Source: Candidatus Woesearchaeota archaeon
Lineage (GTDB): Archaea; Nanobdellota; Nanobdellia; Woesearchaeales; JAFGLG01
DNA: 64,000 nucleotides
Reading direction: 5' to 3'
Assembly (NCBI GenBank): GCA_016928155.1
Contig: JAFGLG010000017.1
Coordinates: 4,134 to 68,133 of the forward strand
Shown here: one piece after another, positions 13,592-53,966 of the stretch
How positions within the stretch are numbered: position 1 is the first letter of the stretch
How the letters are laid out: each line of letters starts with the position of its first letter
Made by a program: the position numbers and the translations under genes
Notes under the pieces: model-generated
The model's input: only the letters and a program-made list of their open reading frames with translations
Databases searched by the model: none
Told to the model about the DNA's origin: nothing

Positions 13592-13592
13592 A

Positions 13593-14714
13593 ATGAGGAT
13601 ATTGGTTGCGACTGACAATTACTTGCCGAGGTGGGATGGGATATCGCGGTTCCTGCACGAGATTCTTCCGGGGCTCGCCAGGAATTTTGACATAAGCGTC
13701 ATCGGCCCCGGATTCCCGGGCAAGAGCATGGGCATCAGGGGAGTCTCTGCCGAGCTGCTCCCCACTTTCGGGTTTCATGTGGGTGATTACAGCCCTGCTA
13801 AGCCCAGCATGAGGAAGATAAGGGAGATGGTGGAAGATTGTGATGTGGTCTTCTCCCAGTCTCTCGGCCCGATAGGTTTTTTTGCTGTGAATTATGCCAA
13901 GAGGTATGGCAAGCCTCTTGTCTGCTATGTGCATTCCATTGAATGGGAGCTTTTTGAGAAATCCATCAAGCTGCACAGGTATGCCAAAAGCATTGTGAAG
14001 CATACAACAAAAAGCCTCGCCCGCAGCCTCTACAATAAGGCTGACCTTCTTCTTGTCCCTTCGAAAGAGATTGGCTCATTGCTCACTAAGGAAGGTATCA
14101 GGACAAAGAAACATGTCGTGCATCTGGGCATCAACACAGAAGAGTTCAGGCCGTCAGCAAAAAAGGCTGATGCTAAGAAGAAGCTTTCTTTTGGGGATGA
14201 TATTATCATAGGATTCACAGGGAGGCTTGGGAGGGAGAAGGATCTTCCTACCCTGTATGAGGCTTTTGATATAATCTCAAGGGTGCATGATGATGTCAGG
14301 CTTGTTATCGTCGGCACGGGCATTGAGGAGCTTGGGTCCCGCACGAACAAACGTGTCATTTTCACTGGGAATGTGGATAATGTGCAGGACTATCTCAGGG
14401 CTTTTGATATATTTGTCATGCCATCACTGACAGAGACCTCATCTCTTGCCACCATGGAGGCCATGGCCTGCGCCTTGCCTGTTGTATCGACAAAAGTCGG
14501 TTACATAAGGCATTATATCAGGGATGGGCAGAATGGTTTCTTCTTCGATTTTGGTGACGCCAATGGTCTTGCCAGAAGGCTTGACATGCTCATCGGGTCA
14601 GAATCATTGAGGAGAAGCATAGGTAAGAAGGCCCGCGAGACCATTGTCAGGAAATATCCTTGGTCAAAGACGATGAAGGAGCTGAATATGGTTTTTGATG
14701 GCTTCAGACCTTGA
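13593..14714 (+). CDS. glycosyltransferase family 4 (group 1 GT)
   Basis: FTGRLGREK..., the EX7E region MPSLTETSSLATMEAMACALPVV, and STKVG. Confidence 0.8.
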   Translation: MRILVATDNYLPRWDGISRFLHEILPGLARNFDISVIGPGFPGKSMGIRGVSAELLPTFGFHVGDYSPAKPSMRKIREMVEDCDVVFSQSLGPIGFFAVNYAKRYGKPLVCYVHSIEWELFEKSIKLHRYAKSIVKHTTKSLARSLYNKADLLLVPSKEIGSLLTKEGIRTKKHVVHLGINTEEFRPSAKKADAKKKLSFGDDIIIGFTGRLGREKDLPTLYEAFDIISRVHDDVRLVIVGTGIEELGSRTNKRVIFTGNVDNVQDYLRAFDIFVMPSLTETSSLATMEAMACALPVVSTKVGYIRHYIRDGQNGFFFDFGDANGLARRLDMLIGSESLRRSIGKKARETIVRKYPWSKTMKELNMVFDGFRP

Positions 14715-21541: not shown

Positions 21542-22772
21542 TTTCGGGACAGTGCTTGTGTATGTGATGTCATACTTTGGCCTGTTCACTGCCATCTTCT
21601 TCCTGATAACATTGTATGAGAACAGGGGGGGCCTGAAGAATCCTGTAAATGGCAGGTTTCCTGTCGTCACTATTGCTGTGCCTGCTTTCAATGAGCAGAG
21701 CACTCTCAGACGTACCATCGAGTCCCTTCTTGCTCTTGATTATCCGAGGAAGAAGCTTGACATCATAGTCATCAATGACGGCTCCACTGACAGCACGCTG
21801 GAGGTCGCAAATTTGTATAGGAAGCAGGGGGTCAGGGTTTTCTCTAAGATGAATGGAGGCAAGGGGACTGCGCTTAATCTGGCATTGAAGAAGGCAAGAG
21901 GTGAGCTCTTCGGGGCTCTGGACGCTGATTCCTGGGTTGAGCCCGGCGCATTGAAGAAGATCGTGGGATATTTCAATGATCCGAAGATAATGGCTGTCAC
22001 CCCGTCCATGAAGATAGGTGATCCCCAGTCTTTGCTGCAGAAGATACAGTCCATTGAGTATCTTTTCGGCATCTTCCTGAGGAAGATTTTCGCTTTCCTG
22101 AACAGCATCCATGTCACGCCCGGCCCTTTTTCTATCTTCAGGAAATCATTTTTTGATAGGTATGGCGGTTATTCGACCCACAATCTCACAGAGGACATTG
22201 AAGTGGCGCTCAGGATCCAGAGCCATGGCTATATCATCGAGAACTCTGCTGACGCATGCGTCTATACAAAGGGCCCGAAGAGGTTCAGGCCTCTCCTGAG
22301 GCAGAGGCTGAGATGGTATAAGGGCTTCCTTGATAATCTGATGGATTACAGGCAGCTTTTTGGTTTCAGGCATGGCAATCTTGGCATCTTCATCCTGCCT
22401 GGCTCCCTGATTTCTGTCGGCCTGGCTGTCATCCTTTTGGTCTATACCTTTGGGAAGCTCATCAGGGATTCTTTCACTACGCTGAGGAATTGGTATTATA
22501 TAGGATTTGATCTGAAGGAGATGCTCAAGCCAAATTTCGATCTCTTCTACTTTAATCTCAATGCTGTTGTCTATCTTGCAGTGTTCCTTCTCATCCTGGG
22601 TCTGTCAATGATTTATATAGCAAAGAGCATGTCGGATGAGAAGTCAAAGATCAAGTGGATTTATTTGTCTTATATAGTGTTTTATATGCCCCTCTTTGGT
22701 TTCTGGTGGCTTGTTTCCCTCATTTATAAGGCGACTGGCAGGAAGATAAAGTGGGGGCCAAAATATATTTAA
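21525..22772 (+). CDS. GT2 family processive glycosyltransferase (membrane-embedded synthase-like)
   Basis: VTIAVPAFNE, IVINDGSTDST, DAD, QRLRW (QxxRW), with flanking transmembrane helices. Confidence 0.75.
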   Translation: MMMNLDFGTVLVYVMSYFGLFTAIFFLITLYENRGGLKNPVNGRFPVVTIAVPAFNEQSTLRRTIESLLALDYPRKKLDIIVINDGSTDSTLEVANLYRKQGVRVFSKMNGGKGTALNLALKKARGELFGALDADSWVEPGALKKIVGYFNDPKIMAVTPSMKIGDPQSLLQKIQSIEYLFGIFLRKIFAFLNSIHVTPGPFSIFRKSFFDRYGGYSTHNLTEDIEVALRIQSHGYIIENSADACVYTKGPKRFRPLLRQRLRWYKGFLDNLMDYRQLFGFRHGNLGIFILPGSLISVGLAVILLVYTFGKLIRDSFTTLRNWYYIGFDLKEMLKPNFDLFYFNLNAVVYLAVFLLILGLSMIYIAKSMSDEKSKIKWIYLSYIVFYMPLFGFWWLVSLIYKATGRKIKWGPKYI

Positions 22773-25920: not shown

Positions 25921-26487
25921 TTATGCACCTCTTCTTTGCTTCTGAAGTTCGACATATGCTGAGACCTCTTGAGGTATTGTACCTTTGACAACAACACCCC
26001 TCAGTACATTGTAGATCACACTACGTCTGAACTTTTTTAATTCTTCCTTGTTTTTTACGGAGAATATCTGGATTTCTCGACGGAGTTTCGATTCATATTG
26101 TTGGAGGTTGATTTCGCCATCTCCATAGATGAAGATATCAATATCACTTCCGAAATACCAATCGCTCCTGGCAAAACTTCCAAACAGGATTGCGCATTCC
26201 ACATCTGCAAGATCATCAAGGATTCCGCAACTGCACAACTGATTCATTGCATATATCCTCTTCCTCAGTTTGTAGTTTCCATCCTCATGATTGCTGACAT
26301 AGTAAGGCATCTTGCCTTTTTCTTTTGTGCGCGTGATGATCTTCTCTTCCTGGAATCTCTTGAGCCATTTTGCTAGTTTGCTTTCTGCAATCCTGATTTC
26401 CTTGTTCAGTTCGCAGAAATGCCAGTGCTTTGCTGGGTTTTCAAAGAATAATCTCAATACATCCTCTTCCTTGCTATGCCTTCCCAT
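25921..26487 (-). CDS. minimal nucleotidyltransferase (MNT) with N-terminal winged helix
   Basis: ILFGSFARSDWYFGSDIDIFIY matches the GSx(n)SDxD nucleotidyltransferase signature. Confidence 0.6.
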   Translation of the reverse strand: MGRHSKEEDVLRLFFENPAKHWHFCELNKEIRIAESKLAKWLKRFQEEKIITRTKEKGKMPYYVSNHEDGNYKLRKRIYAMNQLCSCGILDDLADVECAILFGSFARSDWYFGSDIDIFIYGDGEINLQQYESKLRREIQIFSVKNKEELKKFRRSVIYNVLRGVVVKGTIPQEVSAYVELQKQRRGA

Positions 26488-27181: not shown

Positions 27182-28021
27182 ATGGATAAAGATAATGCTT
27201 TGGTTGTTTTCCAGGACAGGAGAATCCGTAGGATTTGGCATCAGGACCAGTGGTTTTTCTCAGTCATTGATGTCGTTCAGGCTTTGACTGACAGCTCTAA
27301 TCCAAGGAATTACTGGAGTATGCTTAAGAAAAGGGAATCTGAATATGAAATTGACTTGTCCACATTTTGTGTACAACTGAAGCTGCTCTCTGCAGATGGC
27401 AAGTATTATAAGACAGATTGCGCAAATGTAAAAGCGCTTTTTAGGATTATACAATCAATTCCCTCAAAAAAAGCTGAGCCTTTCAAGCTGTGGCTCGCAC
27501 AAGTGGGATATGAACGAATTCAGGAGATAGAGGATCCAGAGCTTGCTCAAGAGCGTATGAAAGAGCTTTATGAGCAGAAAGGTTACTCGAAGGCATGGAT
27601 AGAAAAACGCCTTAGGGGAATTGCTGTTAGGCAGGATCTGACTGATGAATGGAAAAAACGTGGAGTTGATAGCCAAATCGGTTTCTCAATATTGACAGCA
27701 GAGATATCCAAAGCAACTTTTGGCATGACCCCATCTGAATATAGACTATTCAAGAATTTGAAAAATGAGAACCTGAGGGATCACATGACCGACTTGGAAC
27801 TGATCCTCAATATGTTGGGAGAAGCATCGACAGCTGAACTAGAACGGGTTCATGATCCAAATACTTTTTCTGAGCATAAACAGGTTTCTAGAGATGGAGG
27901 AAAAGTTGCAGGAAAGGCAAGGCAAGAATTAGAGAACAAGACTAAGAAACAAGTTATTAGCGAGGAAAATTATCTTGACGAGCCTGAAAAAGTAAAAAGG
28001 AAGAAACTCCCGAAAGAGTAA
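27182..28021 (+). CDS. Bro-N/KilA-N domain protein with RhuM/antirepressor-like C-terminal region
   Basis: N-terminus VVFQDRRIRRIWHQDQWFFSVIDVVQAL is Bro-N-like. The downstream segment LTDEWKKRGV...NLRDHMTDLELILN is conserved. Confidence 0.5.
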   Translation: MDKDNALVVFQDRRIRRIWHQDQWFFSVIDVVQALTDSSNPRNYWSMLKKRESEYEIDLSTFCVQLKLLSADGKYYKTDCANVKALFRIIQSIPSKKAEPFKLWLAQVGYERIQEIEDPELAQERMKELYEQKGYSKAWIEKRLRGIAVRQDLTDEWKKRGVDSQIGFSILTAEISKATFGMTPSEYRLFKNLKNENLRDHMTDLELILNMLGEASTAELERVHDPNTFSEHKQVSRDGGKVAGKARQELENKTKKQVISEENYLDEPEKVKRKKLPKE

Positions 28022-41475: not shown

Positions 41476-41976
41476 TTACTCTTCCATGATTACCTTGGTC
41501 TTGTCCAGGATTTTTTTTGCTGTATTGAGCAGGTCTGCATATTCTCCGTTTTCCAGTGTTGTTTTTGTGTTGTATTGATACTTTTCCCTCAGGCTGATTG
41601 CTGTTGTTTCATGTGCATTGATGAGTGCCACTTTTTGTATATCCTCCTTATTTAGGTTTATTTTCTTGTCATCGATCAATGACTCGATCAGGGAGAATGT
41701 GCATTCCTGGTTCCTGCTTTCGAATCCCTCTTTTAAGAGTATTGACAAGAAACAATGGTATATTGTGTAGAAAAGGCTGATTGAGCACCAGTCTGTGAAT
41801 CCTCCTTTGTTTAGGTATAATGTGGCTTTCAGGTTGTGTTCTGCCTTGGTCATGTGTTCTTTGGCTCTCGTCAGGCTTGGCTCTGTCCTGACAATGCCCC
41901 TGTGTTTGTGCCCTTTCTCAAGCTCTTTCTGCGCTTTGTTGAGGCACCATCTTAGTTTATTCTTTGCGTGACTCAT
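41476..41976 (-). CDS. HEPN-like all-helical protein, partner of the adjacent nucleotidyltransferase
   Basis: Helical HEPN-like pattern (AEHNLKATLYLNKGGF..FYTIYHCFLSILLKEGFES). No clear Rx4-6H motif. Confidence 0.35.
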   Translation of the reverse strand: MSHAKNKLRWCLNKAQKELEKGHKHRGIVRTEPSLTRAKEHMTKAEHNLKATLYLNKGGFTDWCSISLFYTIYHCFLSILLKEGFESRNQECTFSLIESLIDDKKINLNKEDIQKVALINAHETTAISLREKYQYNTKTTLENGEYADLLNTAKKILDKTKVIMEE

Positions 41977-42547
41977 GGTAAACCCTGATGAATTGGTCCT
42001 CGCCAGTCACAAGGATGCCCTTGATGGCATCTAATATTGGCTTGTGTTCCTTTTTAACATTTTCCTGGATTTCTCCGGAAGTTTGGTACAAAGGATGGAT
42101 TTTTTTCGGGTTTACCTTATTTATCTCATTGACTTCTTTTTGCAGCCTCCTGAATCTCCTCTTGTCAGTTATCAGGAGCGCATCGATATCATTCGGGTCT
42201 GGTTTCCTGAGCACTGATCCGAACAGGATGATGATGTCGGCATTTCTTATTTTTCTGAGCTCTGTTATCCATCTCCTTATCCTCGGAGGTGCGTGCAGCG
42301 CCTCTCTTGACAGCATCAGGGAAACATATCTTTTGGCATATTCTGCATTGCTTATCCTGTAGATTGTCGCCTGCCCTATCTTGCTTGATTTCAGGACACC
42401 CTCTTTTTCCAGTCTTTTCAGTATCTTCAGTGCTCCCATTGGTGTTATATTGGCTTTCTTGGATATGCTGTTCGCATTGTAATGCCTCTCCGGGCTCTTG
42501 GCTATTGTCAGTACAATCTCCATCTCTGCTGCTGTTATGTCTCTCAT
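41957..42547 (-). CDS. minimal nucleotidyltransferase with N-terminal winged helix
   Basis: IIILFGSVLRKPDPNDIDALLI matches the GSx(n)DxD signature. The start is at Met37 of the track ORF, with a TATA-like tttatatatataa about 20 nt upstream on the minus strand. Confidence 0.55.
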   Translation of the reverse strand: MRDITAAEMEIVLTIAKSPERHYNANSISKKANITPMGALKILKRLEKEGVLKSSKIGQATIYRISNAEYAKRYVSLMLSREALHAPPRIRRWITELRKIRNADIIILFGSVLRKPDPNDIDALLITDKRRFRRLQKEVNEINKVNPKKIHPLYQTSGEIQENVKKEHKPILDAIKGILVTGEDQFIRVYHESRKE

Positions 42548-42653
42548 ATAAACATCAAGTTTATATATATAAACTGATAGTTTATAAAGCTTCTGTTTAG
42601 GACAGCTGGGCCATATGGGGATTCCCCAGAAAACCGTGGGTATCAGCCCTAAC

Positions 42654-42693
42654 AAGGCTAAGGAGATAAGAAGTATCCTTGATGAGGATTATT
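42654..42693. repeat. 40-bp direct repeat copy B
   Basis: Identical 40-mer. It still encodes KAKEIRSILDEDY followed by a stop. It abuts the stop codon of the large LysM protein gene. Confidence 0.9.
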
Positions 42694-45448
42694 AGGCTGT
42701 ACCGCCATTTCCTGGCGGGTATGGGTACGAATCAACATACTCAGGTGGTGGCGGGGGGGTTGGAGGCCTCAATTGAAGGAATGAATAAGGATATCCTGTG
42801 AGCACTCTATTCCTATAATATTCTTGATACCAATCCCTCATGTTTTGCATGATCTGGTTAGATTGTTCAGATGAGACACCATATACATAGAAACCTCTTG
42901 ATACAGGAGTTGTTACCCCATATTTTTCCTCTAGCTTGTCATGCACAAATTGGTTTGCATCTGCTGAGCAGAAATCGCAATCTCCGATTGAGAAATGAGT
43001 GTTTAGTCTTTGTTCTGCATTTCTTATTGATTTGTCTCCCACTAGTCCTTTATTGGTTATTGTAGGTTCATCATATGAGAACATTGGCCCCATTGCATCA
43101 TCAAGTCTTTGCTCGAAATCATCGCCGAAATCATATTGTGATTGCCACTGTGACTCCCATAATGATTGATCCCATATTAATTCAGGTGCAAAAGGGTCAG
43201 CTCGCTGCTGTCTCATTTCTGCAAAATATTCATCAATTGAATCAGAAACATCTCTCAGTCTTAGTGGCTCATCTACTATCGTGGTCTCAAATCCTAATTG
43301 AAGATTTTCTGCTAATGCATCAGACCTGAAGAGTGAAGATGGTGATCTGTCTCCAATGGCGCAGAATAGGCTGGATGACCCGCAGTCCTGGAATGGCTCA
43401 AAATCTGCGAGGAACTCCTCTGAGTGATGTGCATCAGTCACAAATGTAGGCTCTGTGTCAAGTAGGTCTAGGTTCCCGATGTCGAATGTTGTGGTATGCC
43501 TTATTTCCTCTCTTTGTCTTTCATTGATGGCTTGCATTTGCGAGGTTGAGATCGTGCTCATCTGAATCCTCCCCCCCGCACCAGCCGAGTACTGTCTAAC
43601 TTCTGTTGCTGTCCCGGGGTTTATAAATATCTGCTCTCCTGCAAAGATAAGGTCTCCTCCTCTATCGCTTCTCTCCTGGATATTAGGATTCATTCTGACA
43701 AGGTCCTGCCATGTCACTGTTTGTCCTGTTTGCATGCTTAGATCTTGTGCAATGTGTGATAATGTGTCCCCTGATTTGACATCGTAAGTCCCGACTGCCA
43801 CATCAAATGATCTTGATGGCCTGTGTGAAACAGCTGGGGCTTCAGGATCAGGTTGAGGTGGTGTGTTTGTTGCCACCTGTTGAGGAGTTTCTACTGGCCC
43901 TAGTTGTATCACGGGCCCGTATGGTTCTGTATAGGCTAAGAACTGTTCACTGGCGCTGTATCCTCCAAAACCCATTAGACCCGCCAGTGTCGGATCTACA
44001 CCTGAACCAATCAACATACTGCCCAGAGGATCATTGAAATCAAATACTTGTTGGCCTTCTGCTATCTGAATTGAATATACCCCATCTCCCATATTGCCTG
44101 TTATGGGCTGTATTGAAATTATGGGCCCATCATTTCTAGGTACAGTATTGAGATAGACTTGAGTACCATCACTTAATCCTGTTGGGGATGATCCGAAAGT
44201 CAATGTTATCGGATCAGATGAATGGCTTTGTGTGAGTATTGTTTGAGGTTGCTGGACTCCTAACTGTTGTATCCTGAGATCTGTTCCTTCTTCTGCCCTT
44301 ACAAGCCCTTGTCCATCAACCCAGGTGTATGATGCCTGTCCGGTTGCATGCACCCCCGCCAGCATTCCGTGTGTTCTAGGGAATGTGAGATCTGCTGCCC
44401 CATTCATATCCGTATATGTTTTCCCAGTGGTTGCATCTAAAATCAGGACAGGTTGCTGCGTTGTCTCCATCCTTATCTCAACACTATTCTCATCGACAAC
44501 TCTCACAGGTCCTAAGAGTCTTGTTGTATCTCCTAGGGTTATGACTTGTATTGACTCTGAATCATCTGCCAGAAGCAAATGGCTGTTGCTTGAAGTCCTG
44601 ATATCTGAGTCATCACCTATTGAATATACTTGAAGATTATAATCATTGTCATTCTCTTTTACATAAGTCGCTCTTGGTGTGATGCCCCTATCATTTGGGA
44701 GTCTTATCTCATGATCATCTATTGTGTATCTTCCTTCAGTGCCAACTGCACCACCATAATATAACTCAACTCCAAGATTACCTTGATCATCTCCTGATCT
44801 GATATAAGTCTGCTGCATTGGTCCGACGATTGTGATTGTCTCAGAACTGTCAGAGGAGCTTACTACAACTGTGTTCCCTGTTGCATCTGTGGTAAATGTT
44901 GTCTCTGTATCAGCTTGAAGGATAAGATCATTGCTCATCTTTACTTGATTATGCTGTGCATCATATCCTTCAACAGTTGATCCGGGTCCGCCCCCTTTCA
45001 CAGTGATGGGATTCTGTTGGTTTTGTGCGTTTCCACCTGTTATTGTAAATCCGCCACCATCACCACTAACAGCCTCAACTGATGATGCCTGTCCTATAGC
45101 AGATAATGGGAGAGGAGTCCCACCAGCTGTGTTTGTCAATGTTGTTCCTGATATTGATATTCCTGGACCGCTCTTTATCTGTGTGCTACCATAGGTTGCA
45201 TCTGAATTAAGGATAACTGTGTAGCTTCCTGTGTTCATATTAGAAAGGTCTACGCTTCCTCTAGTTATTGTTATTGTATTGCCTGATTTTATTGCCTGTA
45301 CCCCTTGAGAACTGATTCCGGTAAAATCTTGAAGTTGGTCATCAGAAAGTGTCTCCTCTTCATCATCTCCTGTCCCTTCTTCTGTTGGCTGAGCAGCAAC
45401 ATTTATGACAATCAAGAGCAATACTAGAAGGACAATGATTTTCTTCAT
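42692..45448 (-). CDS. large secreted protein with LysM domain and Pro-rich C-terminus
   Basis: Signal peptide MKKIIVLLVLLLIVINVAAQ. LysM motif YDVKSGDTLSHIAQDL...WQDLVRMNP. C-terminal PPTPPPPPEY. Start overlaps the upstream gene stop (ATGA). Confidence 0.55.
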   Translation of the reverse strand: MKKIIVLLVLLLIVINVAAQPTEEGTGDDEEETLSDDQLQDFTGISSQGVQAIKSGNTITITRGSVDLSNMNTGSYTVILNSDATYGSTQIKSGPGISISGTTLTNTAGGTPLPLSAIGQASSVEAVSGDGGGFTITGGNAQNQQNPITVKGGGPGSTVEGYDAQHNQVKMSNDLILQADTETTFTTDATGNTVVVSSSDSSETITIVGPMQQTYIRSGDDQGNLGVELYYGGAVGTEGRYTIDDHEIRLPNDRGITPRATYVKENDNDYNLQVYSIGDDSDIRTSSNSHLLLADDSESIQVITLGDTTRLLGPVRVVDENSVEIRMETTQQPVLILDATTGKTYTDMNGAADLTFPRTHGMLAGVHATGQASYTWVDGQGLVRAEEGTDLRIQQLGVQQPQTILTQSHSSDPITLTFGSSPTGLSDGTQVYLNTVPRNDGPIISIQPITGNMGDGVYSIQIAEGQQVFDFNDPLGSMLIGSGVDPTLAGLMGFGGYSASEQFLAYTEPYGPVIQLGPVETPQQVATNTPPQPDPEAPAVSHRPSRSFDVAVGTYDVKSGDTLSHIAQDLSMQTGQTVTWQDLVRMNPNIQERSDRGGDLIFAGEQIFINPGTATEVRQYSAGAGGRIQMSTISTSQMQAINERQREEIRHTTTFDIGNLDLLDTEPTFVTDAHHSEEFLADFEPFQDCGSSSLFCAIGDRSPSSLFRSDALAENLQLGFETTIVDEPLRLRDVSDSIDEYFAEMRQQRADPFAPELIWDQSLWESQWQSQYDFGDDFEQRLDDAMGPMFSYDEPTITNKGLVGDKSIRNAEQRLNTHFSIGDCDFCSADANQFVHDKLEEKYGVTTPVSRGFYVYGVSSEQSNQIMQNMRDWYQEYYRNRVLTGYPYSFLQLRPPTPPPPPEYVDSYPYPPGNGGTA

Positions 45449-46470
45449 GGTTTCACCGTGAATGTGATGACTTTCCAGCCTGTCATGTTCTTTTCATCTG
45501 TGGCGCTGATGTTTGTCTCGAATGAACCTATCTCACTTGGTGTGAAGCTTATTATCCCTGTGTATTTTGCAATAGGCACTTTCGGATTGCTTGATTTGAA
45601 TATCATATAATCATCTTCTGGGTCATATGCCTCGACCTTGTGATAGAATGATTCATTCACTTCAGCTTCTAGGTCAGCAACTTGCACTATTGGGGCATGA
45701 TTCTCAATGTCATATGATGCTGCAAATAGGAAGACATAGGGAACTTCATTTATGCTCACTGTCTCAGGATCTTGGATTATATAGACAACTGAATCTTCAT
45801 AGGAGATTGTATCTATCTGTAGGTTCAGGTCTGATGATACTTCAAGCAGTGTGCTTGTTGGTATTAGTCTGGGATATTTCACTATTGAGTCAGTTATTCT
45901 CTCAGAGGCTTTAAGGATAGTCATCATTCTTGATGGCCTCGAATATTGGAATTCTGTGAAAGTCTTAACTTTTTCACCTTGCTTCACTTCAAAGGGGAAT
46001 TCCACTTTGAATACGACTGTCTCATCGCTGAATTTAACATCAGTTGCATATCTCAAATTGTCGAATTGGTATCCTTGGAACCTATATGTCTTGAAGTCAT
46101 TGAGACAATACTGGAGAGCTTCATCGACATAGTCTTCTAATTCTATCTCTAAGCTGTTCTCTGTGTGCACTGATTTTGCACCTTTGTAATAGAAATATGG
46201 CACTGGTGAATATATTGTTTCCAAATGAAGTGGGGGTATATGGTGGTATCCTCCTTTGAGCCCAAGATGAAAATATCCTATCTCTGCAACATCATCGACG
46301 CATTTCTGCGTGGACATCCTTATCTGCTCGAAGTCGGTTATACTCGCCTGTTCTACTGCCATCTCCATTTCTCCCTTGTTTCTTAGGGATGACATGTAGA
46401 TTATGAGGCTTATGATCATTATGAGCACTATGCCGAGAACTATGAATACTGTGACCTGCCCTCTTTTCAT
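45445..46470 (-). CDS. pilin-like protein with class III (type IV prepilin-like) signal peptide
   Basis: MKRG|QVTVFIVLGIVLIMIISLIIY has a basic N-terminus, a G/Q cleavage-like site and a hydrophobic stretch. 341 aa. Confidence 0.4.
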   Translation of the reverse strand: MKRGQVTVFIVLGIVLIMIISLIIYMSSLRNKGEMEMAVEQASITDFEQIRMSTQKCVDDVAEIGYFHLGLKGGYHHIPPLHLETIYSPVPYFYYKGAKSVHTENSLEIELEDYVDEALQYCLNDFKTYRFQGYQFDNLRYATDVKFSDETVVFKVEFPFEVKQGEKVKTFTEFQYSRPSRMMTILKASERITDSIVKYPRLIPTSTLLEVSSDLNLQIDTISYEDSVVYIIQDPETVSINEVPYVFLFAASYDIENHAPIVQVADLEAEVNESFYHKVEAYDPEDDYMIFKSSNPKVPIAKYTGIISFTPSEIGSFETNISATDEKNMTGWKVITFTVKP

Positions 46471-46543
46471 CAGATATGCTAATCAGAAATGTATTTATAA
46501 ATTTTATGTAATATCATATATTAATAGCCATCATCCTGCCCTG
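46441..46543. repeat. promoter plus 5'-coding block duplicated at 51661..51753
   Basis: About 100 nt are near-identical, including tcatcagatatgctaatcagaaatgtatttataaattttatgtaatatcatatattaatagccatcat and the first 10 codons. Confidence 0.8.
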
Positions 46544-46794
46544 CTTGTTCCGGTTTCTTCTGCCAGATAAGTGATTGTCGGCTTGATTGCAGTTTCTTTC
46601 AGGAGTATCCTCAGATTTTTGCTGTTGTCATCATCTGATGCCCGTATTCTTGCTATTTCCAAATCATTAACAACTATTAACATATAGTTAACAGCATTAT
46701 TTAAAGGTTTTGGTTGCCTTGACATGATGCCGCAGGATGCCATGCGGCAGGCTTCAGAAGATAGATAAGATAGGGTCAATAAAAGCCAAAGAGA

Positions 46795-47907
46795 TCAGAA
46801 AGATCCCTGACTGAGGTTATTAGACATGATCTGATTCACTTGAGAGATTTTTAATAGCAGGTTGCTCATGGTTTCTTGGTACTCATATGATGCTGTTTGT
46901 TCTCCCGGCTTATTCTTTAGATGGTTAAATGCATATGAAAGGTTACTGAGCATCTCATGGCAGAACATCATCTGCTGATCCCTGTCTCCCCACTCTTTAA
47001 TATAATTTATTGGGTGCGAGAGGACCCCTATTGCATGGTTGGGATTTTGGCTAATATTCTGAAGTGCTTTGTCTGATTCTTCTTGGTAGATCTGCAGTCC
47101 TTCTTTTATGTCAATATCTCTTACTGGAGAGCTTGTTCTTGACAGGTTCTTGTTCATGGATAAGGATTTTCTGTAGTATTGTGGCGCGATTGATATGAGA
47201 TTATTGTTTTGATATGCTCTTTGGAGCAGTGTGTATGGTTTTTCCGGATTTCTGAAATGCCCTGTCTCGCATAGGTGGCTGATCTCGTCAGTTATCTGGT
47301 CCATCATCTCTTGTTCTGTGTGATTCATTGTGTATGTTGCGAACCTGTCCAGGAAATTTGCTGTACGGTCTGCGCCAAGCGAATCTACAAAGAGCTTTGT
47401 CAGCTCAGCCATGTCTATCCGGTTCTTGTGCAGGCCTTCCATTAGTATTTCACTGGATTCATATCCCCTGCCGGTTGCATAGACCTCAGTGAAGTCAAAC
47501 GCATTTTTTTGTTTTGCCAGCTCAAGGTAGTGCTGTACTGCCTCTCTCCACTCTCCTTTTTCGAACATGTCTTGCATAGAGTAGCTGAATTCTTCTTTGT
47601 CCTGTTCTGTCATCTCGCCAAATTCATTGAAGTGGTATATCATGGCATCCAGGCCATGATTTTGATTGGTTTTTTTGGGGATTGGTTGCGCTGGCTGTCT
47701 CTCTTCTGTCGGTTCTGTTTTTTCTGGAGGTTCTTCATGATGATCCAACAGAGAATAAGAGATTGCCAGTGTTATAAGGGATGCCACTGCGATAGGTATG
47801 CTTAATCTTGTCCTGCCTGCTTGTTTTTCAATCTTAAGGATGTTCTCCAGCTCAGGCTGGCCTGCATATCTTTCTTTGAGATCCTTGAAATACTCACTTT
47901 TATCCAT
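46795..47907 (-). CDS. hypothetical single-pass membrane protein
   Basis: 370 aa with one transmembrane helix (IPIAVASLITLAISYSLL) and no recognised domain. Confidence 0.3.
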   Translation of the reverse strand: MDKSEYFKDLKERYAGQPELENILKIEKQAGRTRLSIPIAVASLITLAISYSLLDHHEEPPEKTEPTEERQPAQPIPKKTNQNHGLDAMIYHFNEFGEMTEQDKEEFSYSMQDMFEKGEWREAVQHYLELAKQKNAFDFTEVYATGRGYESSEILMEGLHKNRIDMAELTKLFVDSLGADRTANFLDRFATYTMNHTEQEMMDQITDEISHLCETGHFRNPEKPYTLLQRAYQNNNLISIAPQYYRKSLSMNKNLSRTSSPVRDIDIKEGLQIYQEESDKALQNISQNPNHAIGVLSHPINYIKEWGDRDQQMMFCHEMLSNLSYAFNHLKNKPGEQTASYEYQETMSNLLLKISQVNQIMSNNLSQGSF

Positions 47908-48064
47908 GTATTATCCTGAATTGTTTCAATATAAAAATTTTATTGTTTTTATCACTATATAATGACAAAATAAACTATTTACAATATAGAAAATAATTAC
48001 TTGTGATGCATGACCAGATGGTATGGACAAGGATTTCCATGATAGGATTAAGATGTTCCGATAC

Positions 48065-50662
48065 TCAGACTAGTGATTGACTTGGATTTCTAATTAGATA
48101 TTGTTGCAACCAGTAGTCTTTCATTTTTGTTTTTATCAATTCCTTCGCTTCATTTTGTTTACTCGGATCAAGCTGCCATATGTTGATTGTTCTCTGCTGG
48201 TTATTGACAGAAGTTAATGCTGTTGTTCCAAGTTCAGTTCCGACCTTCTTGGCCACTGCTTGCCAGCATGCATCATCACACCATGACTCTCCTGACACCG
48301 GAATGTCTGAGTATGTTCTTTTCCACTCAGTCCCTTCTCTATGATACCATCTTGTTGGAGCCCCCTGTCCTCGCTCAAATTCTCCAAACCTCAGATCATC
48401 TCTGTGTTCATATTCATCTGCTTTTTCAGTCAAATCTGAACGTAATACAGCCGGACCTTCAAGAGTTGTAGTATCTGAATTAGATGCTGGTTGCACATCA
48501 GACGCAAAGGGTGGCAAATCACTTAATAAAGGATTTTGCAGATATTGCCGTCCAGAAATAGGGTCGAATAGTGTGGGTTGGTAGAACGGTTTGTTGCTGA
48601 ATAAATTTCTTGCATCAAATCTTACTCCATCATCCACTTGTTCATCCGCTTGTTTAGTAGCCTCATGAATTTTATTTGCAGCTTCATCTGTTGCTCCAGA
48701 TAGATCCTTTGTTGTTATGGTCTTTAGTTTATGGTCTTGTCCTACTACTCCTTGCTTTTGTTTGCCCCAAAAAGATTCTGCAATCTTTATTTCCTCACCG
48801 ATGAATATCAGGTTTTTTCCGCTAAGTGTACTGTCACTTGCAAGCTCTATGCATCTTCCTTCAATATGCGGGTTCATCTCCATCAAATCCTGGACAGTAC
48901 GTCCATAAAGGTCAGCGATCTTCTGCAATGTATCTCCCTTTTTTACCTCAACATACCCCCTTTCAAAGGCATCGTCAGTATCATCACCAGTCTGCTGTGG
49001 AACTACCGCTTCAATATGATCCGAACCCACAAGGGCATTGGATGTTTGTTGTGCCTGAGGTTGAAGGATAAGTGGTACTGTTGTATCTTGGTTGTGGGCT
49101 GTGTCATCCAAAATTTTGACAGATGGTGCATTTTTCTCAGTAACTATTACAACTTTTGGAGTTTCAACCGTGGTTGTAGAATCGCCTTGATTTGTTGGAT
49201 TAGCCACAGGTATTTCTCGTGTAACAGATGAATCTGATATTGGATTCTTTAATTCTGAAACTTTGCCTATATCATTTTGGGTATGTATACACTTACCATA
49301 ATTGATATTATATGTAACACTATAATCAAAAAAAATTTGGGGCCCTTGTATACTAAATTTGGATTGTGGGGTTTGTGTTTCATCATAATTAATAAAAATA
49401 TCAGATTCGATATTTGGAGAATCACCAACTTTTATCCGTAGAGGCCTACGGTTATCATCACCTGCAAGTAAATCACTTCTTGACAAAGTGATCAAGTTAT
49501 AAGGGACACCATTTTCAACATAATTGACCATACTAGTATCACTAACAGAGGGGAATATTATTTGTTCAACTTTATTATCCTGAAATGAGAGCTCATGTTC
49601 GGAATAAACGTTATAATGACCATCTTTATAGGGAAAATTGGATCTTTGACCACTTATACTATTAGGTTTCCCATCATGAAAAGCTAATCTTGCCATTCCA
49701 AGTGTGATAATGCCTGTATCACCATACTCGCACTTAACATTTAAATTTGGATCATCACTTCCTACAGAAATACGATTAATAGCAACATAATCGTCGTGAA
49801 GGTTGATCCTAAAAGGGCCCACAAATTCCTCGCTCTGGGTTGTAGGTAGGGGCCAAGATGTATCTGAAGTTGTATCTTTGGAAATGGCAATATCAAAGTC
49901 TTTATAATGTAAAATACCTGATTTTATAGATGAAACATAATAACTATTTTCTTTTCTACTAAATCTTACAGCTTCCCCGCTATGGACAGTATAAGTCAAA
50001 TCTCCCAATGTAATAACTCTACCTGAGCTTTCCAAATTCTTCAAACTAGAAATAATTACAGATTTAGAGGGGTCTACACTTATGGTGCTGCCGACAAGAT
50101 CGCCTGAAACTTTGACACCATCAATACTTAATTCTTCATTATTATATTCCACTGAAACCTCCTTCACACCAGAATAAGAAAAAAGAACATCTTTATCATT
50201 ATAGGTAATTTTTTCTGATCCACCAGTATTCGAAAATTGGACATTTGAGATAACTAAGATGCTATTTTTATTAGTTATGCGAAACTTATTATTTCCAATA
50301 GCTGAGACTGACTCTGCTTTCACTTTATTCAGATCAAGCGTGTTCTTCCCGTTTGTCACAACCCCATTTTGGACTGTGACTGAGCTCGCTCCATCAAGTT
50401 TCAGGGGCATCCCATTGTATTTTGCATTTGTTTTCAGTACTACTTGATTGTTTCCGAAACTACTGAGTTCTGGTTCCCCGCCAGTCACTGTAAAGACATT
50501 ATCAGCAAATGTTCCGCTTAATCCTTTGCATACATCAGATGAAGCCCTGGTTTCACATTCTGTTTGAAAAACCTGCTCCTCGTCTGTTTCCTCAACAGGT
50601 GGATCTTGAGCAACCACTCCAGCTACCAAGAGCAAAAGGACCAGCAGTATTATCTTCTTCAT
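48065..50662 (-). CDS. large secreted LysM-domain protein, paralog of 42692..45448
   Basis: Signal peptide MKKIILLVLLLLVAGVVAQ. LysM motif YVEVKKGDTLQKIADLYGRTVQDLMEMNP. Confidence 0.55.
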   Translation of the reverse strand: MKKIILLVLLLLVAGVVAQDPPVEETDEEQVFQTECETRASSDVCKGLSGTFADNVFTVTGGEPELSSFGNNQVVLKTNAKYNGMPLKLDGASSVTVQNGVVTNGKNTLDLNKVKAESVSAIGNNKFRITNKNSILVISNVQFSNTGGSEKITYNDKDVLFSYSGVKEVSVEYNNEELSIDGVKVSGDLVGSTISVDPSKSVIISSLKNLESSGRVITLGDLTYTVHSGEAVRFSRKENSYYVSSIKSGILHYKDFDIAISKDTTSDTSWPLPTTQSEEFVGPFRINLHDDYVAINRISVGSDDPNLNVKCEYGDTGIITLGMARLAFHDGKPNSISGQRSNFPYKDGHYNVYSEHELSFQDNKVEQIIFPSVSDTSMVNYVENGVPYNLITLSRSDLLAGDDNRRPLRIKVGDSPNIESDIFINYDETQTPQSKFSIQGPQIFFDYSVTYNINYGKCIHTQNDIGKVSELKNPISDSSVTREIPVANPTNQGDSTTTVETPKVVIVTEKNAPSVKILDDTAHNQDTTVPLILQPQAQQTSNALVGSDHIEAVVPQQTGDDTDDAFERGYVEVKKGDTLQKIADLYGRTVQDLMEMNPHIEGRCIELASDSTLSGKNLIFIGEEIKIAESFWGKQKQGVVGQDHKLKTITTKDLSGATDEAANKIHEATKQADEQVDDGVRFDARNLFSNKPFYQPTLFDPISGRQYLQNPLLSDLPPFASDVQPASNSDTTTLEGPAVLRSDLTEKADEYEHRDDLRFGEFERGQGAPTRWYHREGTEWKRTYSDIPVSGESWCDDACWQAVAKKVGTELGTTALTSVNNQQRTINIWQLDPSKQNEAKELIKTKMKDYWLQQYLIRNPSQSLV

Positions 50663-51684
50663 CTTGTCACCGTGAATTTTATCATTTTCCAGTTTGTTGC
50701 ATTGAGTTCATCAACAACTGACAGGTTCACATCATACACACCTGTGACAGTTGGCGTGAAATTGATGAATCCTGAGTATCTTCCCACTGGCAGTGCTGGA
50801 TTGTCTGAAAAGAACTCGAAAGAGTCATAGTCTGCGTCAAAGCTTTCTATCTCATAGTAGAACGTCTCATTCACCTTTGCTTCCATGTCCTCGATGGGTA
50901 ATGTGGGCGGGTTGTTCATTGGGCTTGTCTTTGTCGAAAACAGGAACATGTAAGGCACCCCTCCGTCACTCAGTAGGCTCTTGTCCTGCACTACATATGT
51001 CACGATTGTCCCGTATGACAGCGTGTCTATCTGGAGGTCATGCTTTGCAGACATTTCTAATATTGTAGAGGTGGGGGTGTATCTTGGATCCTTTATGACC
51101 TCAAGGACTATTTCCTTCGCTGCATCTATTATGTTTAGCATCCTGGCTTGTTGAACATATTCGAATTCCTCATAGCTCTTCACAGCATCCCCTTTCTTTA
51201 TTTCAAGAGGATATCTTATCTTGAATATGATGTTCTTAATCCCGACTTCAACATCGGCTGTGACATTTGGCTCATTGAATGAGTATCCCATCATCTTGTA
51301 GTTCCTGAAGCCCTGCAGGCAATAAGGGAATGCCTCTTCGATTGCCTCTGATAGTTCGCGCTCAAGGTCTGTCTTATTCACCAGTCCGACATATCCCTCA
51401 AAATAGAAATAGGGTATATCTGAATATATTGATTTGAAATGCAGCGGGGGCAGGGTATAATATCCTCCTTTAAGCCCCATAGAGAAGAATTGCGTCTCAG
51501 CAACATCCTCGACGCATTTCTGTGTGAGCATCCTTATCTGCTCGAAGTCTGTCACCCTTGCCTGCTCCACTGTCATCTCAATCTCTCCCTTGTGTCTCAG
51601 GGCTGTCATGTAGATGACCAGGCTCACTATCATCAGGATTACTATGCCGAGAACTATGAATACTGTGACCTGGCCTCTTTTCAT
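50659..51684 (-). CDS. pilin-like protein with class III signal peptide, paralog of 45445..46470
   Basis: MKRG|QVTVFIVLGIVILMIVSLVIY. 341 aa, collinear with its paralog along the whole length. Confidence 0.4.
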   Translation of the reverse strand: MKRGQVTVFIVLGIVILMIVSLVIYMTALRHKGEIEMTVEQARVTDFEQIRMLTQKCVEDVAETQFFSMGLKGGYYTLPPLHFKSIYSDIPYFYFEGYVGLVNKTDLERELSEAIEEAFPYCLQGFRNYKMMGYSFNEPNVTADVEVGIKNIIFKIRYPLEIKKGDAVKSYEEFEYVQQARMLNIIDAAKEIVLEVIKDPRYTPTSTILEMSAKHDLQIDTLSYGTIVTYVVQDKSLLSDGGVPYMFLFSTKTSPMNNPPTLPIEDMEAKVNETFYYEIESFDADYDSFEFFSDNPALPVGRYSGFINFTPTVTGVYDVNLSVVDELNATNWKMIKFTVTR

Positions 51685-51753
51685 CAGATATGCTAATCAG
51701 AAATGTATTTATAAATTTTATGTAATATCATATATTAATAGCCATCATTTTGC
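51661..51753. repeat. second copy of the duplicated promoter/5' block
   Basis: See 46441..46543. Confidence 0.8.
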
Positions 51754-53480: not shown

Positions 53481-53966
53481 TTAATTTTGAACACCCGATT
53501 TATAATCAAATTTAGTTTCGATATTAGTAATTGGCTTCTTTGCCGTCAACCCAGCCAGATTCTCTTCCTCAACACCAGCTTCTCTGGGATATGTAAGCTC
53601 TAGCTTGTCCACGATTATGTATATCCCGATGCTGTCCGGAAGGTTGTCTGAAAGATGCTGGTGCGCAACAACCATCAGCTCTGGAGAGACTGCTGCATGA
53701 TAGAATGTGACTTTTATCTTGCCATTGCTAACTGATGAGACGACTGATGGATTGCTGACTCCTGCTTTGCTTAGCGCAGCCAGTCCTGTCTCTTTCATCA
53801 TCTGCTCTGTTTCATAGAGGCCGCCTGCAGTTGCCTGCCCTGATAGGTCTGCACCGATGATTGGCGCCCTGACTTTCTGGACAATCATGACAAGTGCCAC
53901 AATGCTTACTATGACAAGTATTGCTAGCATTGCTCCTTTTTGGGAAGTATCATTCTTTTTTTCCAT
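53481..53966 (-). CDS. hypothetical membrane-anchored protein
   Basis: N-terminal transmembrane helix AMLAILVIVSIVALVMIV. 161 aa. Confidence 0.3.
   Translation of the reverse strand: MEKKNDTSQKGAMLAILVIVSIVALVMIVQKVRAPIIGADLSGQATAGGLYETEQMMKETGLAALSKAGVSNPSVVSSVSNGKIKVTFYHAAVSPELMVVAHQHLSDNLPDSIGIYIIVDKLELTYPREAGVEEENLAGLTAKKPITNIETKFDYKSGVQN

What the first reader, a model, noticed from the sequence alone, without database searches (positions are those of the whole stretch)
42692..51753. Tandemly duplicated two-gene operon: a class-III-signal-peptide pilin-like protein plus a roughly 900-aa secreted LysM protein
Two cassettes (45445..46470 with 42692..45448, and 50659..51684 with 48065..50662) have the same order and ATGA overlaps. 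The 341-aa proteins begin MKRG|QVTVFIVLGIV..., a textbook archaeal type IV prepilin-like signal. The large proteins have Sec signal peptides, a LysM domain and Pro-rich tails. About 100 nt spanning the promoter and first 10 codons are near-identical between copies while the rest has diverged. That pattern suggests gene conversion or phase/antigenic-type variation of a surface attachment apparatus, possibly for host-cell contact in an episymbiont. LysM is rare in archaea.
Basis: partly seen in the sequence, partly recalled or inferred. Interest (0 to 1): 0.7.

Follow-up and report, generated by a model that had tools for sequence, protein, structure and literature searches.

The report
Duplicated pilin-like plus LysM surface cassette
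Two old, diverged copies of a gene pair lie side by side here: a pilus-subunit-like anchor protein followed by a very large, fast-changing secreted sugar-binding protein. The pair is common in tiny symbiotic (DPANN) archaea, has not been described, and most likely builds a cell-surface attachment device.

Summary
Two cassettes on the minus strand each encode a 341-aa protein and an 865/918-aa protein, joined by an ATGA overlap. A 108-nt tract (-64 to +43 of the small genes) is identical except for one synonymous base.

The window comes from a Candidatus Woesearchaeota MAG.

- **Small proteins:** 49% identical. They belong to a large family with no Pfam or NCBIfam model (1,925 cluster representatives at E<=1e-30) in Woese-/Pace-/Nanoarchaeota MAGs. 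The family N-terminus is conserved position by position: a basic leader, [GAS], then Q(+1), T(+3), F(+5), G(+9). A confident model (pLDDT 95.5) shows a 69-residue N-terminal helix, an unassigned alpha/beta head and a cadherin-like domain.
- **Pairing:** in 16 of 22 evaluable related loci the small gene is followed directly by a large Sec-signal gene. Partner subfamilies track small-protein subgroups, and 6 loci hold a second copy.
- **Large proteins:** both are database orphans. They share only an N-terminal ~130-aa region and a LysM domain.
- **Identical tract:** specific to this genome, with a dS gradient, which fits gene conversion. No inverted repeats or recombinase were found, so phase variation is not supported.
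- **Gap:** no signal peptidase or pilus machinery lies within reach, so pilin status is inferred.

The parts
51641..51748 (-). Homogenised 108-nt tract, copy B: 64 nt upstream (TATA-like TTTATAAATA at -31..-22 from the ATG, no Shine-Dalgarno, so probably a leaderless mRNA) plus codons 1-14 of small B
   Evidence: Identical to 46427..46534 except one synonymous base. DNA upstream of -65 is unrelated.
50659..51684 (-). Small B: 341-aa pilin-like protein. Leader MKRG, Q(+1), and about 22 uncharged residues at 51604..51684; alpha/beta head domain; cadherin/Ig-like C-terminal domain at about 50662..50913
   Evidence: (JW968_07155, 'hypothetical protein')
48065..50662 (-). Large B: 865-aa Sec-signal protein with no membrane anchor. 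Conserved N-terminal region at about 50213..50602. The rest is unrelated to large A.
   Evidence: (only a self hit among 5.8 billion proteins)
48779..48958 (-). LysM domain of large B (residues ~569-628), with a loop insertion before the last strand
46795..47907 (-). 370-aa single-pass membrane protein gene between the cassettes. It has its own TATA-like promoter, and T-rich tracts follow large B. Whether it belongs to the system is unknown.
   Evidence: no family; hydrophobic segment around residues 35-55
46427..46534 (-). Homogenised 108-nt tract, copy A (promoter plus codons 1-14 of small A). The stop codon of an 82-aa ORF (46531..46779) abuts its upstream edge.
   Evidence: The Logan contig breaks at 46505 and 46456 fall inside it.
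45445..46470 (-). Small A: 341-aa pilin-like protein. Signal and hydrophobic helix at 46390..46470. Modelled helix spans residues 3-71, head domain residues ~72-255, cadherin/Ig-like domain at about 45448..45699.
   Evidence: JW968_07135; pLDDT 95.5
42692..45448 (-). Large A: 918-aa Sec-signal protein with no membrane anchor and a Pro-rich C-terminus. Conserved N-terminal region at about 44999..45382.
   Evidence: (only a self hit)
43619..43792 (-). LysM domain of large A (residues ~553-610)

Best explanation
These are two anciently duplicated copies of a two-gene surface module that is widespread in Woese-/Pace-/Nanoarchaeota (DPANN) archaea.

Shown:
- Gene 1 encodes a member of a large family that has no Pfam or NCBIfam model.
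- Its N-terminus looks like a class III (prepilin-type) signal: a 3-7 residue basic leader ending in G/A/S, an invariant Gln at +1, and about 22 uncharged residues.
- In the model this N-terminus forms the first third of one 69-residue helix. The helix carries an alpha/beta head of unassigned fold, followed by zero, one or more cadherin-like domains.
- Gene 2 overlaps gene 1 (ATGA) and encodes a large Sec-signal protein with no membrane anchor.
- The pair is inherited as a unit. Partner subfamilies mirror small-protein subgroups.
- In this genome the two partners keep only an N-terminal ~130-aa region and a LysM domain. About 650-700 residues of each are at shuffle level.

Inferred:
- The small protein is processed by a class III signal peptidase. 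It sits in the membrane, or in or at the tip of a type IV-like filament.
- Its conserved head docks the conserved N-terminal region of the co-translated partner, so the anchorless partner is displayed on the cell.
- The partner supplies target binding. Here that is through LysM, to a GlcNAc-containing polymer: bacterial peptidoglycan, chitin, pseudomurein, or the cell's own glycan.
- Functionally this resembles a minor pilin with a large tip adhesin, or a 'modular pilin' split into two genes.

The identical 108-nt promoter and leader tract results from recent short-tract gene conversion. Older tracts reach to about codon 60. As a result both cassettes now share one promoter and one signal sequence. 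It is not a switch.
For: - **Family size and taxonomy:** 11,885 cluster representatives at E<=1e-3, 7,415 at <=1e-10 and 1,925 at <=1e-30. 147 of the 150 best hits are 247-516 aa with matches covering most of the profile; the looser tiers include hits through the Ig domain alone. 20 of the 25 genome loci are labelled Woese-/Pace-/Nanoarchaeota or simply 'archaeon' MAGs; 5 carry an unverified 'uncultured Methanosarcinales' label. Named members are 'hypothetical protein [Candidatus Woesearchaeota archaeon]'. No Pfam or NCBIfam model matches. None occur on viral contigs.
- **N-terminal logo (141 members carrying the [basic][GAS]Q motif):** T/S(+3) in 123, F(+5) in 128, G(+9) in 112, and a median of 22 uncharged residues. 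Q5 is conserved in at least 90% of the 149 aligned sequences. A short leader ending in Gly followed by Gln at +1 is the documented signature of EppA-processed Methanococcus pilins (PMC3875500).
- **Pairing:** 16 of 22 evaluable loci have a 385 to >2,200-aa Sec-signal ORF overlapping or within 4 nt of the small gene. P0003, P0004 and P0006 show the same arrangement.
- **Co-clustering:** 11 of 11 grouped small proteins have their nearest neighbour within the same partner subfamily.
- **Long forms:** family members of 564-919 aa carry their own long extension and lack a large Sec-signal partner downstream.
- **Gene conversion:**
- **Context:** DPANN/Nanoarchaeota encode type IV filament systems, and class III signal proteins are often encoded away from them (preprint 10.64898/2026.04.22.720090).
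Against: - No class III signal peptidase, type IV filament ATPase or platform protein was found. I checked the 64-kb window, about 10 kb of flank beyond the window's downstream end and about 4 kb upstream, and +/-8 kb around 25 related loci. The loci were checked only with a crude motif scan.
- No pilin or Class_IIIsignal Pfam model matches. The best is Tad at E 0.21.
- Position +5 is Phe, not the Glu of Methanococcus and bacterial pilins.
- At 250-440 aa the proteins are far larger than major pilins.
- A long N-terminal helix is also expected for an ordinary type II membrane protein with a stalk.
- Physical interaction between the small and large proteins was not tested.
- Co-clustering could reflect linkage alone.
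- The partner N-termini of different subfamilies show no detectable common docking domain.
Confidence: 0.5

Rival explanations
1. The small protein is an unprocessed type II (signal-anchor) membrane protein that acts as a stalk. It tethers the large secreted protein as an outer coat, like a two-component S-layer or surface-coat pair (functionally like Sulfolobales SlaB/SlaA). No pilus machinery is involved.
For: No peptidase or filament machinery is within reach. The arrangement is a small membrane-anchored protein with Ig-like domains plus a large anchorless secreted protein in one operon. Large surface proteins are typically lineage-specific orphans.
Against: A plain anchor does not explain invariant Q(+1), F(+5) and G(+9) and a fixed short basic leader across a family whose remaining sequence has diverged to about 20-30% identity. 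Modules occur in several divergent copies per genome. Partners range from 385 to more than 2,200 aa and include M64 peptidase-like and cupredoxin domains. That does not fit a lattice-forming S-layer protein. No S-layer family matches.
Confidence: 0.25
2. The small protein is a pseudopilin-like export or presentation factor, analogous to a type II secretion pseudopilus. The large partner is its cargo: a secreted effector that binds or attacks GlcNAc-containing cell walls of prey or host bacteria, rather than a cell-bound adhesin.
For: Partners have no anchor. LysM is typical of wall-targeting enzymes. Other partners carry M64 peptidase-like domains. Woesearchaeota and Nanoarchaeota are reported to encode murein-degrading enzymes (PMC9723730; PMC12352652).
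Against: No catalytic domain was detected in large A or B. One dedicated pseudopilin per cargo has no precedent. The Ig/cadherin domain on the small protein suits display better than export.
Confidence: 0.12
3. The identical promoter and leader tract is a recombination site that lets the cell alternate or exchange cassettes, giving phase or antigenic variation of the surface apparatus.
For: There are two divergent variants of a surface module with a shared 108-nt recombination-competent repeat. The large proteins are extremely diverged.
Against: The repeats are direct, so crossover would irreversibly delete small B, large B and the 370-aa gene. Both copies have complete promoters and intact ORFs, so neither is a silent donor. 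There are no flanking inverted repeats and no recombinase or invertase in the window. Two independent assemblies give the same single arrangement. Six other two-copy loci lack any such tract.
Confidence: 0.05

Closest known systems
EppA-processed type IV-like pilins of Methanococcus maripaludis (Epd pilus, DUF361 / Class_IIIsignal proteins; PMC3875500)
   Same: Both have a short basic leader ending in Gly, a conserved Gln at +1 and a hydrophobic N-terminal helix. In Methanococcus too, some pilin-like proteins are much larger than the major pilin and are encoded away from the pilus cluster.
   Different: Position +5 is Phe rather than Glu. No DUF361/Class_IIIsignal profile match. The head domain is about 180 aa with an unassigned fold, plus cadherin-like domain(s). 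The gene is always paired with a large Sec-signal partner. Processing by a peptidase was not shown.
Bacterial minor-pilin / PilY1 (PilC) tip-adhesin complexes, and the PilY-like or Ig-rich adhesins in archaeal type IV filament loci (preprint 10.64898/2026.04.22.720090)
   Same: A pilin-type subunit works with a large non-pilin, Sec-exported, variable protein that provides adhesion.
   Different: The partners show no detectable PilY1/PilC homology. The module is not encoded next to an ATPase or platform gene. The pairing is one-to-one with translational coupling, and it recurs in tandem arrays.
Modular pilins of Streptococcus sanguinis (PilB with a vWA module; PMC8179133)
   Same: A pilin N-terminal module carries a grafted adhesive domain. 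The 564-919-aa long forms of this family look like that.
   Different: In the window the functional module is a separate polypeptide. The head domain is family-specific.
[quoted passage not shown]
   Same: Large non-filament proteins carry a conserved class III signal and are encoded away from the assembly machinery.
   Different: No solute-binding domain and no adjacent ABC transporter.
LysM-carrying cell-wall-binding proteins and archaeal peptidoglycan hydrolases (PMC12352652)
   Same: Both large proteins have a single LysM domain that passes the Pfam threshold. It is the best-conserved island between them.
   Different: No hydrolase domain was detected. LysM sits in the middle of an 865-918-aa orphan protein and has a loop insertion. 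It is absent from the 13 partner proteins of other loci that I tested.

Membership tests
Class III signal peptide / type IV pilin-like proteins (archaeal type IV filament substrates) | Short positively charged leader ending in G/A/S, followed directly by a hydrophobic stretch of about 20 residues | tested here: met
   The sequence reads MKRG|QVTVFIVLGIVLIMIISLIIYM. 141 of 149 family members carry the motif. The Gln sits at residue 5-7 in 105 of them. Median uncharged stretch is 22 residues.
Class III signal peptide / type IV pilin-like proteins (archaeal type IV filament substrates) | Position-specific conservation of the mature N-terminus (Gln +1 in the EppA/Epd subtype; Glu +5 in Methanococcus and bacterial pilins) | tested here: inconclusive
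   Gln(+1) is conserved in at least 90% of sequences, matching the subtype described in PMC3875500. Position +5 is Phe in 128 of 141 members, not Glu. Glu +5 is also absent from Sulfolobus and Haloferax pilins according to the same paper.
Class III signal peptide / type IV pilin-like proteins (archaeal type IV filament substrates) | Match to a curated pilin or class III signal profile | tested here: not met
   Pfam at E<=1 gives only Tad (TadE/G-like N-terminus) at E 0.21, 12.3 bits against a cutoff of 22.3, for small B. NCBIfam gives nothing relevant. The family profile against PDB sequences matches only Ig/cadherin domains.
Class III signal peptide / type IV pilin-like proteins (archaeal type IV filament substrates) | Extended N-terminal alpha-helix whose C-terminal half packs on a globular domain ('lollipop' shape) | tested here: met
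   The AlphaFold2 model from 149 sequences has pLDDT 95.5 and a single helix over residues 3-71, followed by an alpha/beta head. This is a prediction, and it is also compatible with a stalked type II membrane protein.
Class III signal peptide / type IV pilin-like proteins (archaeal type IV filament substrates) | A class III signal peptidase (A24 family: PibD/FlaK/EppA) encoded in the same genome, and cleavage of the leader | not testable with these tools
   None was found in the window, in the flanking DNA I could reach (about 10 kb downstream, about 4 kb upstream), or in 25 related loci. The rest of the 143.6-kb contig and the other contigs of the MAG could not be read.
Class III signal peptide / type IV pilin-like proteins (archaeal type IV filament substrates) | Genomic linkage to a type IV filament ATPase and platform protein | tested here: not met
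   Pfam finds no T2SSE or T2SSF domains in any window ORF of 150 aa or more. A Walker-A motif scan of all loci was negative (crude). Linkage is not obligatory for class III signal proteins (preprint).
LysM domain (PF01476) | Profile score above the curated gathering threshold | tested here: met
   Large A scores 23.8 bits and large B 35.2 bits against a cutoff of 20.9. Large B's region matches solved LysM repeats: LytE at 1.7e-9 and 4uz2 at 1.8e-6.
LysM domain (PF01476) | Complete beta-alpha-alpha-beta unit | tested here: inconclusive
   The profile is covered only at positions 1-32 and 2-29 of 43. A plausible last strand (LIFAGEQIFI / LIFIGEEIKI) follows an insertion of 10-20 residues (read). 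No structure was predicted for the large proteins.
LysM domain (PF01476) | Binding to GlcNAc-containing glycans (peptidoglycan, chitin) | not testable with these tools
   This needs a binding assay.
PilY1/PilC-type pilus tip adhesins | Homology to the PilY1/PilC C-terminal domain | tested here: not met
   No such Pfam hit in large A or B, or in 13 partner proteins from other loci.
Phase-variable (invertible or cassette-switching) surface loci | Inverted repeats flanking a promoter, or a silent donor copy plus a site-specific recombinase | tested here: not met
   The repeats are direct. The inverted repeats in the region are weak: 20-32 nt, 70-90% complementary, and distant from each other. Both copies are complete and have promoters. 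The window has no recombinase domain.
Two-component S-layer (SlaA/SlaB-like) | Homology to known S-layer families, with one dominant lattice-forming gene pair per genome | tested here: not met
   No S-layer Pfam hit. There are several divergent modules per genome or locus. Expression level could not be tested.

The most novel reading that the evidence does not exclude
The 'MKRGQ...' family defines an undescribed display system specific to Woese-/Pace-/Nanoarchaeota. A conserved pilin-type handle with a new head fold docks interchangeable, rapidly diversifying secreted cargo proteins, which may be adhesins, glycan binders or enzymes. The cassettes multiply in tandem arrays and are reshaped by segment replacement and gene conversion. 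Together they would form the main genetic determinant of host or prey recognition in these episymbionts. In this genome the two LysM cargos would point to a partner or substrate bearing peptidoglycan or chitin.
Probability: 0.3. Interest if true: 0.75.

Novelty: new variant of a known kind. Interest (0 to 1): 0.55.

Why it matters
How DPANN archaea recognise and hold on to their hosts is largely unknown, and Woesearchaeota have no cultured representative with an identified host.

This gene pair is a concrete and testable candidate:
- The family is abundant: thousands of clusters, with no Pfam or NCBIfam model.
- The pilin-type handle is conserved and modelled with high confidence.
- The partner diverges beyond recognition even between paralogs in one genome, which is the pattern expected of host-interface proteins.

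If the handle-plus-cargo model is right, partner domains could be read as predictors of host type. LysM here would point to peptidoglycan or chitin. The head domain would become a searchable marker for such loci.

If the model is wrong, the family is still a large, unannotated group of surface proteins that deserves a profile model.

Tried and rejected
- **Locus search:** A 6-sequence alignment worked through the MKRGQVT[VI]F pattern, which biases the 25 loci towards that exact leader.
- **Large protein homologs:** searches for large A and large B returned only themselves. I could not build an alignment or a reliable structure for them.
- **Shared docking domain:** all-vs-all phmmer on partner N-termini found no domain shared across partner subfamilies.
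- **Fusion test:** the C-terminal extensions of the long forms match no partner protein and no Pfam family. My by-eye guesses of GH-like and M64-like domains there were dropped.
- **82-aa ORF:** the ORF upstream of cassette A looked HTH-like by eye but has no Pfam support.
- **Viral origin:** no relatives on viral contigs.
- **Peptidase and ATPase motif scan:** negative. It is crude and cannot prove absence.
- **Register error:** a first comparison of 5' ends in other two-copy loci was out of register, and the first attempt to correct it aborted with a script error after the window pair. The rerun anchored on the Gln codon worked.
- **Literature:** I found no description of this family.

Full report
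**1. The observation**

ORF listing reproduces the four genes exactly, all on the minus strand: small B 50659..51684, large B 48065..50662, small A 45445..46470 and large A 42692..45448. Each pair overlaps by ATGA.

The two 341-aa proteins align without gaps at 49% identity (E 2e-131). The large proteins (918 and 865 aa) align only in two islands: a LysM-containing stretch (36% over 109 aa) and the first ~140 residues (30%).

Pfam confirms LysM above the gathering score in both, at 23.8 and 35.2 bits against 20.9. The region also matches solved LysM repeats such as LytE.

An ungapped DNA comparison shows a sharply bounded tract from -64 to +43 relative to the small-gene ATG. It is identical apart from one synonymous GGG/GGC change. 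Upstream of -65 the copies are unrelated. Downstream, identity falls to about 80% until +180 and then to about 55%. The tract occurs nowhere else in the window.

An independent Logan assembly of the same run (SRR13394437) yields contigs that are 100% identical to the window and that break inside the tract, at 51670, 46505 and 46456. That is what a true exact repeat does to an assembler, and it confirms the gene order.

Minor corrections: only large A has a Pro-rich tail, and the tract spans 14 codons.

**2. Source and context**

The proteins are deposited as JW968_07135 and JW968_07155 of a Candidatus Woesearchaeota MAG, on a 143.6-kb contig.

The rest of the window is housekeeping: XPD, AlaRS, SMC, topoisomerase VI, Hef, RFC, ValRS, CysRS, LemA, HtpX and glycosyltransferases. 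No window ORF of 150 aa or more carries a type IV filament ATPase, platform or A24 peptidase domain. None lies in the extra flanking DNA I could fetch.

T-rich tracts follow large B. The 370-aa gene between the cassettes has its own TATA-like element. Each cassette has TTTATAAATA at -31..-22 with no Shine-Dalgarno sequence. I therefore read three transcription units, with probably leaderless cassette mRNAs. This is read directly from the sequence and was not tested.

**3. The small protein belongs to a large family with no Pfam or NCBIfam model**

The word-indexed search found only eight relatives. An exhaustive profile search against 1.84 billion cluster representatives found far more: 11,885 at E<=1e-3, 7,415 at <=1e-10 and 1,925 at <=1e-30. 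147 of the best 150 are 247-516 aa, and their matches cover most of the profile. The looser tiers include hits through the Ig domain alone.

Members that carry a name are 'hypothetical protein [Candidatus Woesearchaeota archaeon]'. Of the 25 loci recovered from reference genomes, 20 are labelled Woese-, Pace- or Nanoarchaeota or simply 'archaeon' MAGs; five carry an unverified 'uncultured Methanosarcinales' label. No Pfam or NCBIfam model covers the family. None is on a viral contig.

**4. Is the N-terminus a class III signal?**

Across 141 members that carry the [basic][GAS]Q motif, the N-terminus is conserved position by position:
- a leader that places the Gln at residue 5-7 in 105 members, ending in [KR][GAS]
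- T/S(+3) in 123
- F(+5) in 128
- G(+9) in 112
- a median of 22 uncharged residues

Q5 is at least 90% conserved in the 149-sequence alignment. That alignment otherwise keeps only two Cys (C122 invariant, C57 in at least 90%), a GG pair and one Phe, at 18% mean column identity. A generic membrane anchor would not be conserved this way.

A short leader ending in Gly with Gln at +1 is the published signature of EppA-processed Methanococcus pilins. Those pilins also have Glu at +5, which this family lacks, but so do Sulfolobus and Haloferax pilins (PMC3875500).

With the 149-sequence alignment, AlphaFold2 gives pLDDT 95.5 and pTM 0.79. The model has one continuous helix over residues 3-71, then an alpha/beta head (residues ~72-255), then a beta-sandwich (residues ~258-340). 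This is the pilin 'lollipop' layout, although a stalked type II membrane protein could look similar.

Against membership: no pilin profile matches, and neither a signal peptidase nor assembly genes are within reach.

**5. The pairing is a family property**

In 16 of 22 evaluable genome loci, the small gene is overlapped or followed within 4 nt by an ORF of 385 to more than 2,200 aa that begins with a Sec-type hydrophobic signal. The same holds for P0003, P0004 and P0006.

The partners form mutually unrelated subfamilies. Domains are detected only occasionally: M64 peptidase-like, cupredoxin and DUF4846. None of the 13 tested has LysM.

I compared head domains with the signal helix excluded. 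For all 11 grouped members the nearest neighbour lies in the same partner subfamily. So each cassette is inherited, and possibly co-evolves, as a unit.

Family members of 564-919 aa carry their own long extension and lack a large Sec-signal partner downstream. That fits a 'modular pilin' alternative, although I found no homology between those extensions and any partner.

Six of the 25 loci hold a second family copy within 8 kb, often directly after the first partner gene. Tandem arrays therefore recur.

**6. The large proteins here**

Both are orphans among 5.8 billion proteins. Both have a signal peptide and no other hydrophobic segment.

In other subfamilies the small and large proteins diverge at similar rates, for example 35% against 33% and 42% against 35%. 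The near-total loss of similarity here, beside 49%-identical small genes, means either unusually fast diversification or segment replacement. I cannot tell which.

**7. The identical tract**

Nei-Gojobori estimates show a 5'-to-3' gradient:

| Codons | dS | dN |
|---|---|---|
| 1-15 | 0.21 | 0 |
| 16-60 | 0.64 | 0.16 |
| beyond 60 | 1.3 or higher, to saturation | about 0.5 |

Family-wide constraint cannot explain identity at synonymous sites plus 64 non-coding bases. Two paralogs in another MAG keep the same amino acids with different codons and unrelated upstream DNA. In six other two-copy loci the upstream identity is 29-42%, and the longest run with at most one mismatch is 27 nt, against 108 nt here.

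The best reading is recent short-tract gene conversion layered on older, longer tracts. Its effect is that both cassettes share one promoter and one leader.

A switching mechanism is unlikely:
- The repeats are direct.
- Both copies are complete and have promoters.
- No inverted repeats or recombinase are present.
- Two assemblies agree on one arrangement.

**8. Mechanism proposed**

Shown: the cassette architecture, the family-wide signal motif, the modelled helix-head-Ig structure, the anchorless Sec partner, the LysM domain, the co-inheritance and the conversion tract.

Inferred: the small protein is a class III signal substrate that sits in the membrane or in a type IV-like filament. It holds the co-translated partner through its conserved head and the partner's conserved N-terminal region. 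The partner provides target binding, here to a GlcNAc polymer.

This works like a minor pilin with a tip adhesin. It is not a member of the PilY1 family, and pilin membership itself is unproven. Confidence is about 0.5.

Rivals:
- a plain anchor with a surface coat (0.25)
- a pseudopilin with a secreted effector (0.12)
- switching (0.05)

**9. Literature context**

DPANN/Nanoarchaeota encode type IV filament systems, some with large adhesins. Class III signal proteins are often encoded away from the machinery (preprint 10.64898/2026.04.22.720090). Peptidoglycan hydrolase homologues are particularly prominent in Nanoarchaeota, and LysM can also bind chitin (PMC12352652). Woesearchaeota MAGs carry murein transglycosylases (PMC9723730). 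I found no description of this family or of its pairing.

**10. Verdict**

The feature is real and correctly observed.

I rate the novelty as a new variant of a known kind: a pilin-type protein plus an adhesin-like partner, in an undescribed, widespread, cassette-forming family. Interest is 0.55. It gives a concrete handle on DPANN host recognition, but every functional step still rests on inference.

Noticed in passing
window 4291..5343 (+) and 5360..5941 (+): A 350-aa protein has a GGDEF diguanylate-cyclase domain (Pfam E 4.7e-20; the motif reads GGDEL). It is followed by an HD-domain protein. To my knowledge, c-di-GMP-type signalling genes are unusual in archaea.
   Followed up: partly
window 18463..22772 (+), also 12947..14714 (+): Two overlapping ORFs of 538 and 492 aa with no family match precede a GT2 glycosyltransferase with chitin-synthase-like hits. 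A PIG-L GlcNAc deacetylase and a GT4 lie nearby. This may be a GlcNAc-polymer pathway, which would give the LysM proteins a self-made ligand.
   Followed up: no
window 53481..53966 (-): A 161-aa ORF has a different class-III-like N-terminus (MEKKNDTSQKG|AMLAILVIVSIVALVMIV). It has no family match and could be another pilin-like protein.
   Followed up: partly
window 46795..47907 (-): A 370-aa single-pass membrane protein with no Pfam or NCBIfam match sits between the two cassettes and has its own TATA-like promoter. I do not know whether it belongs to the system.
   Followed up: partly
window 46531..46779 (-): The stop codon of an 82-aa ORF abuts the upstream edge of the homogenised tract of cassette A. 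Its C-terminus looks HTH-like by eye, but there is no Pfam support. It may be a gene remnant cut by the duplication or conversion.
   Followed up: partly
window 41476..42655 (-), and 25921..26487 (-): A HEPN-domain protein and a nucleotidyltransferase/wHTH protein overlap directly downstream of cassette A, in a toxin-antitoxin-like arrangement. A second nucleotidyltransferase lies at about 26 kb.
   Followed up: no
L032 9202..12900 (-), about 8 kb beyond the window's end on the same genome: A protein of more than 1,232 aa has at least 9 Big_9/cadherin-like repeats that hit the small-family HMM through its Ig domain. It lies next to BatA/VWA/DUF58/MoxR genes and is another large surface protein of this organism.
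   Followed up: partly
window 27182..28021 (+): A BRO-N domain protein, a domain typical of viruses and mobile elements, lies in a lower-GC stretch (0.40 at 26-28 kb).
   Followed up: no
L008, L010, L021, L030, L031: Five related loci come from MAGs labelled 'uncultured Methanosarcinales archaeon', yet they carry this otherwise DPANN-restricted family. The labels may be wrong, or the family may be wider than DPANN.
   Followed up: no
L014 8894..11920 and L017 1243..4332: The partner proteins of this subfamily carry an M64 (IgA peptidase-like) domain, and in L014 also a C-terminal cupredoxin. So some cargos are enzyme-like rather than adhesin-like.
   Followed up: partly
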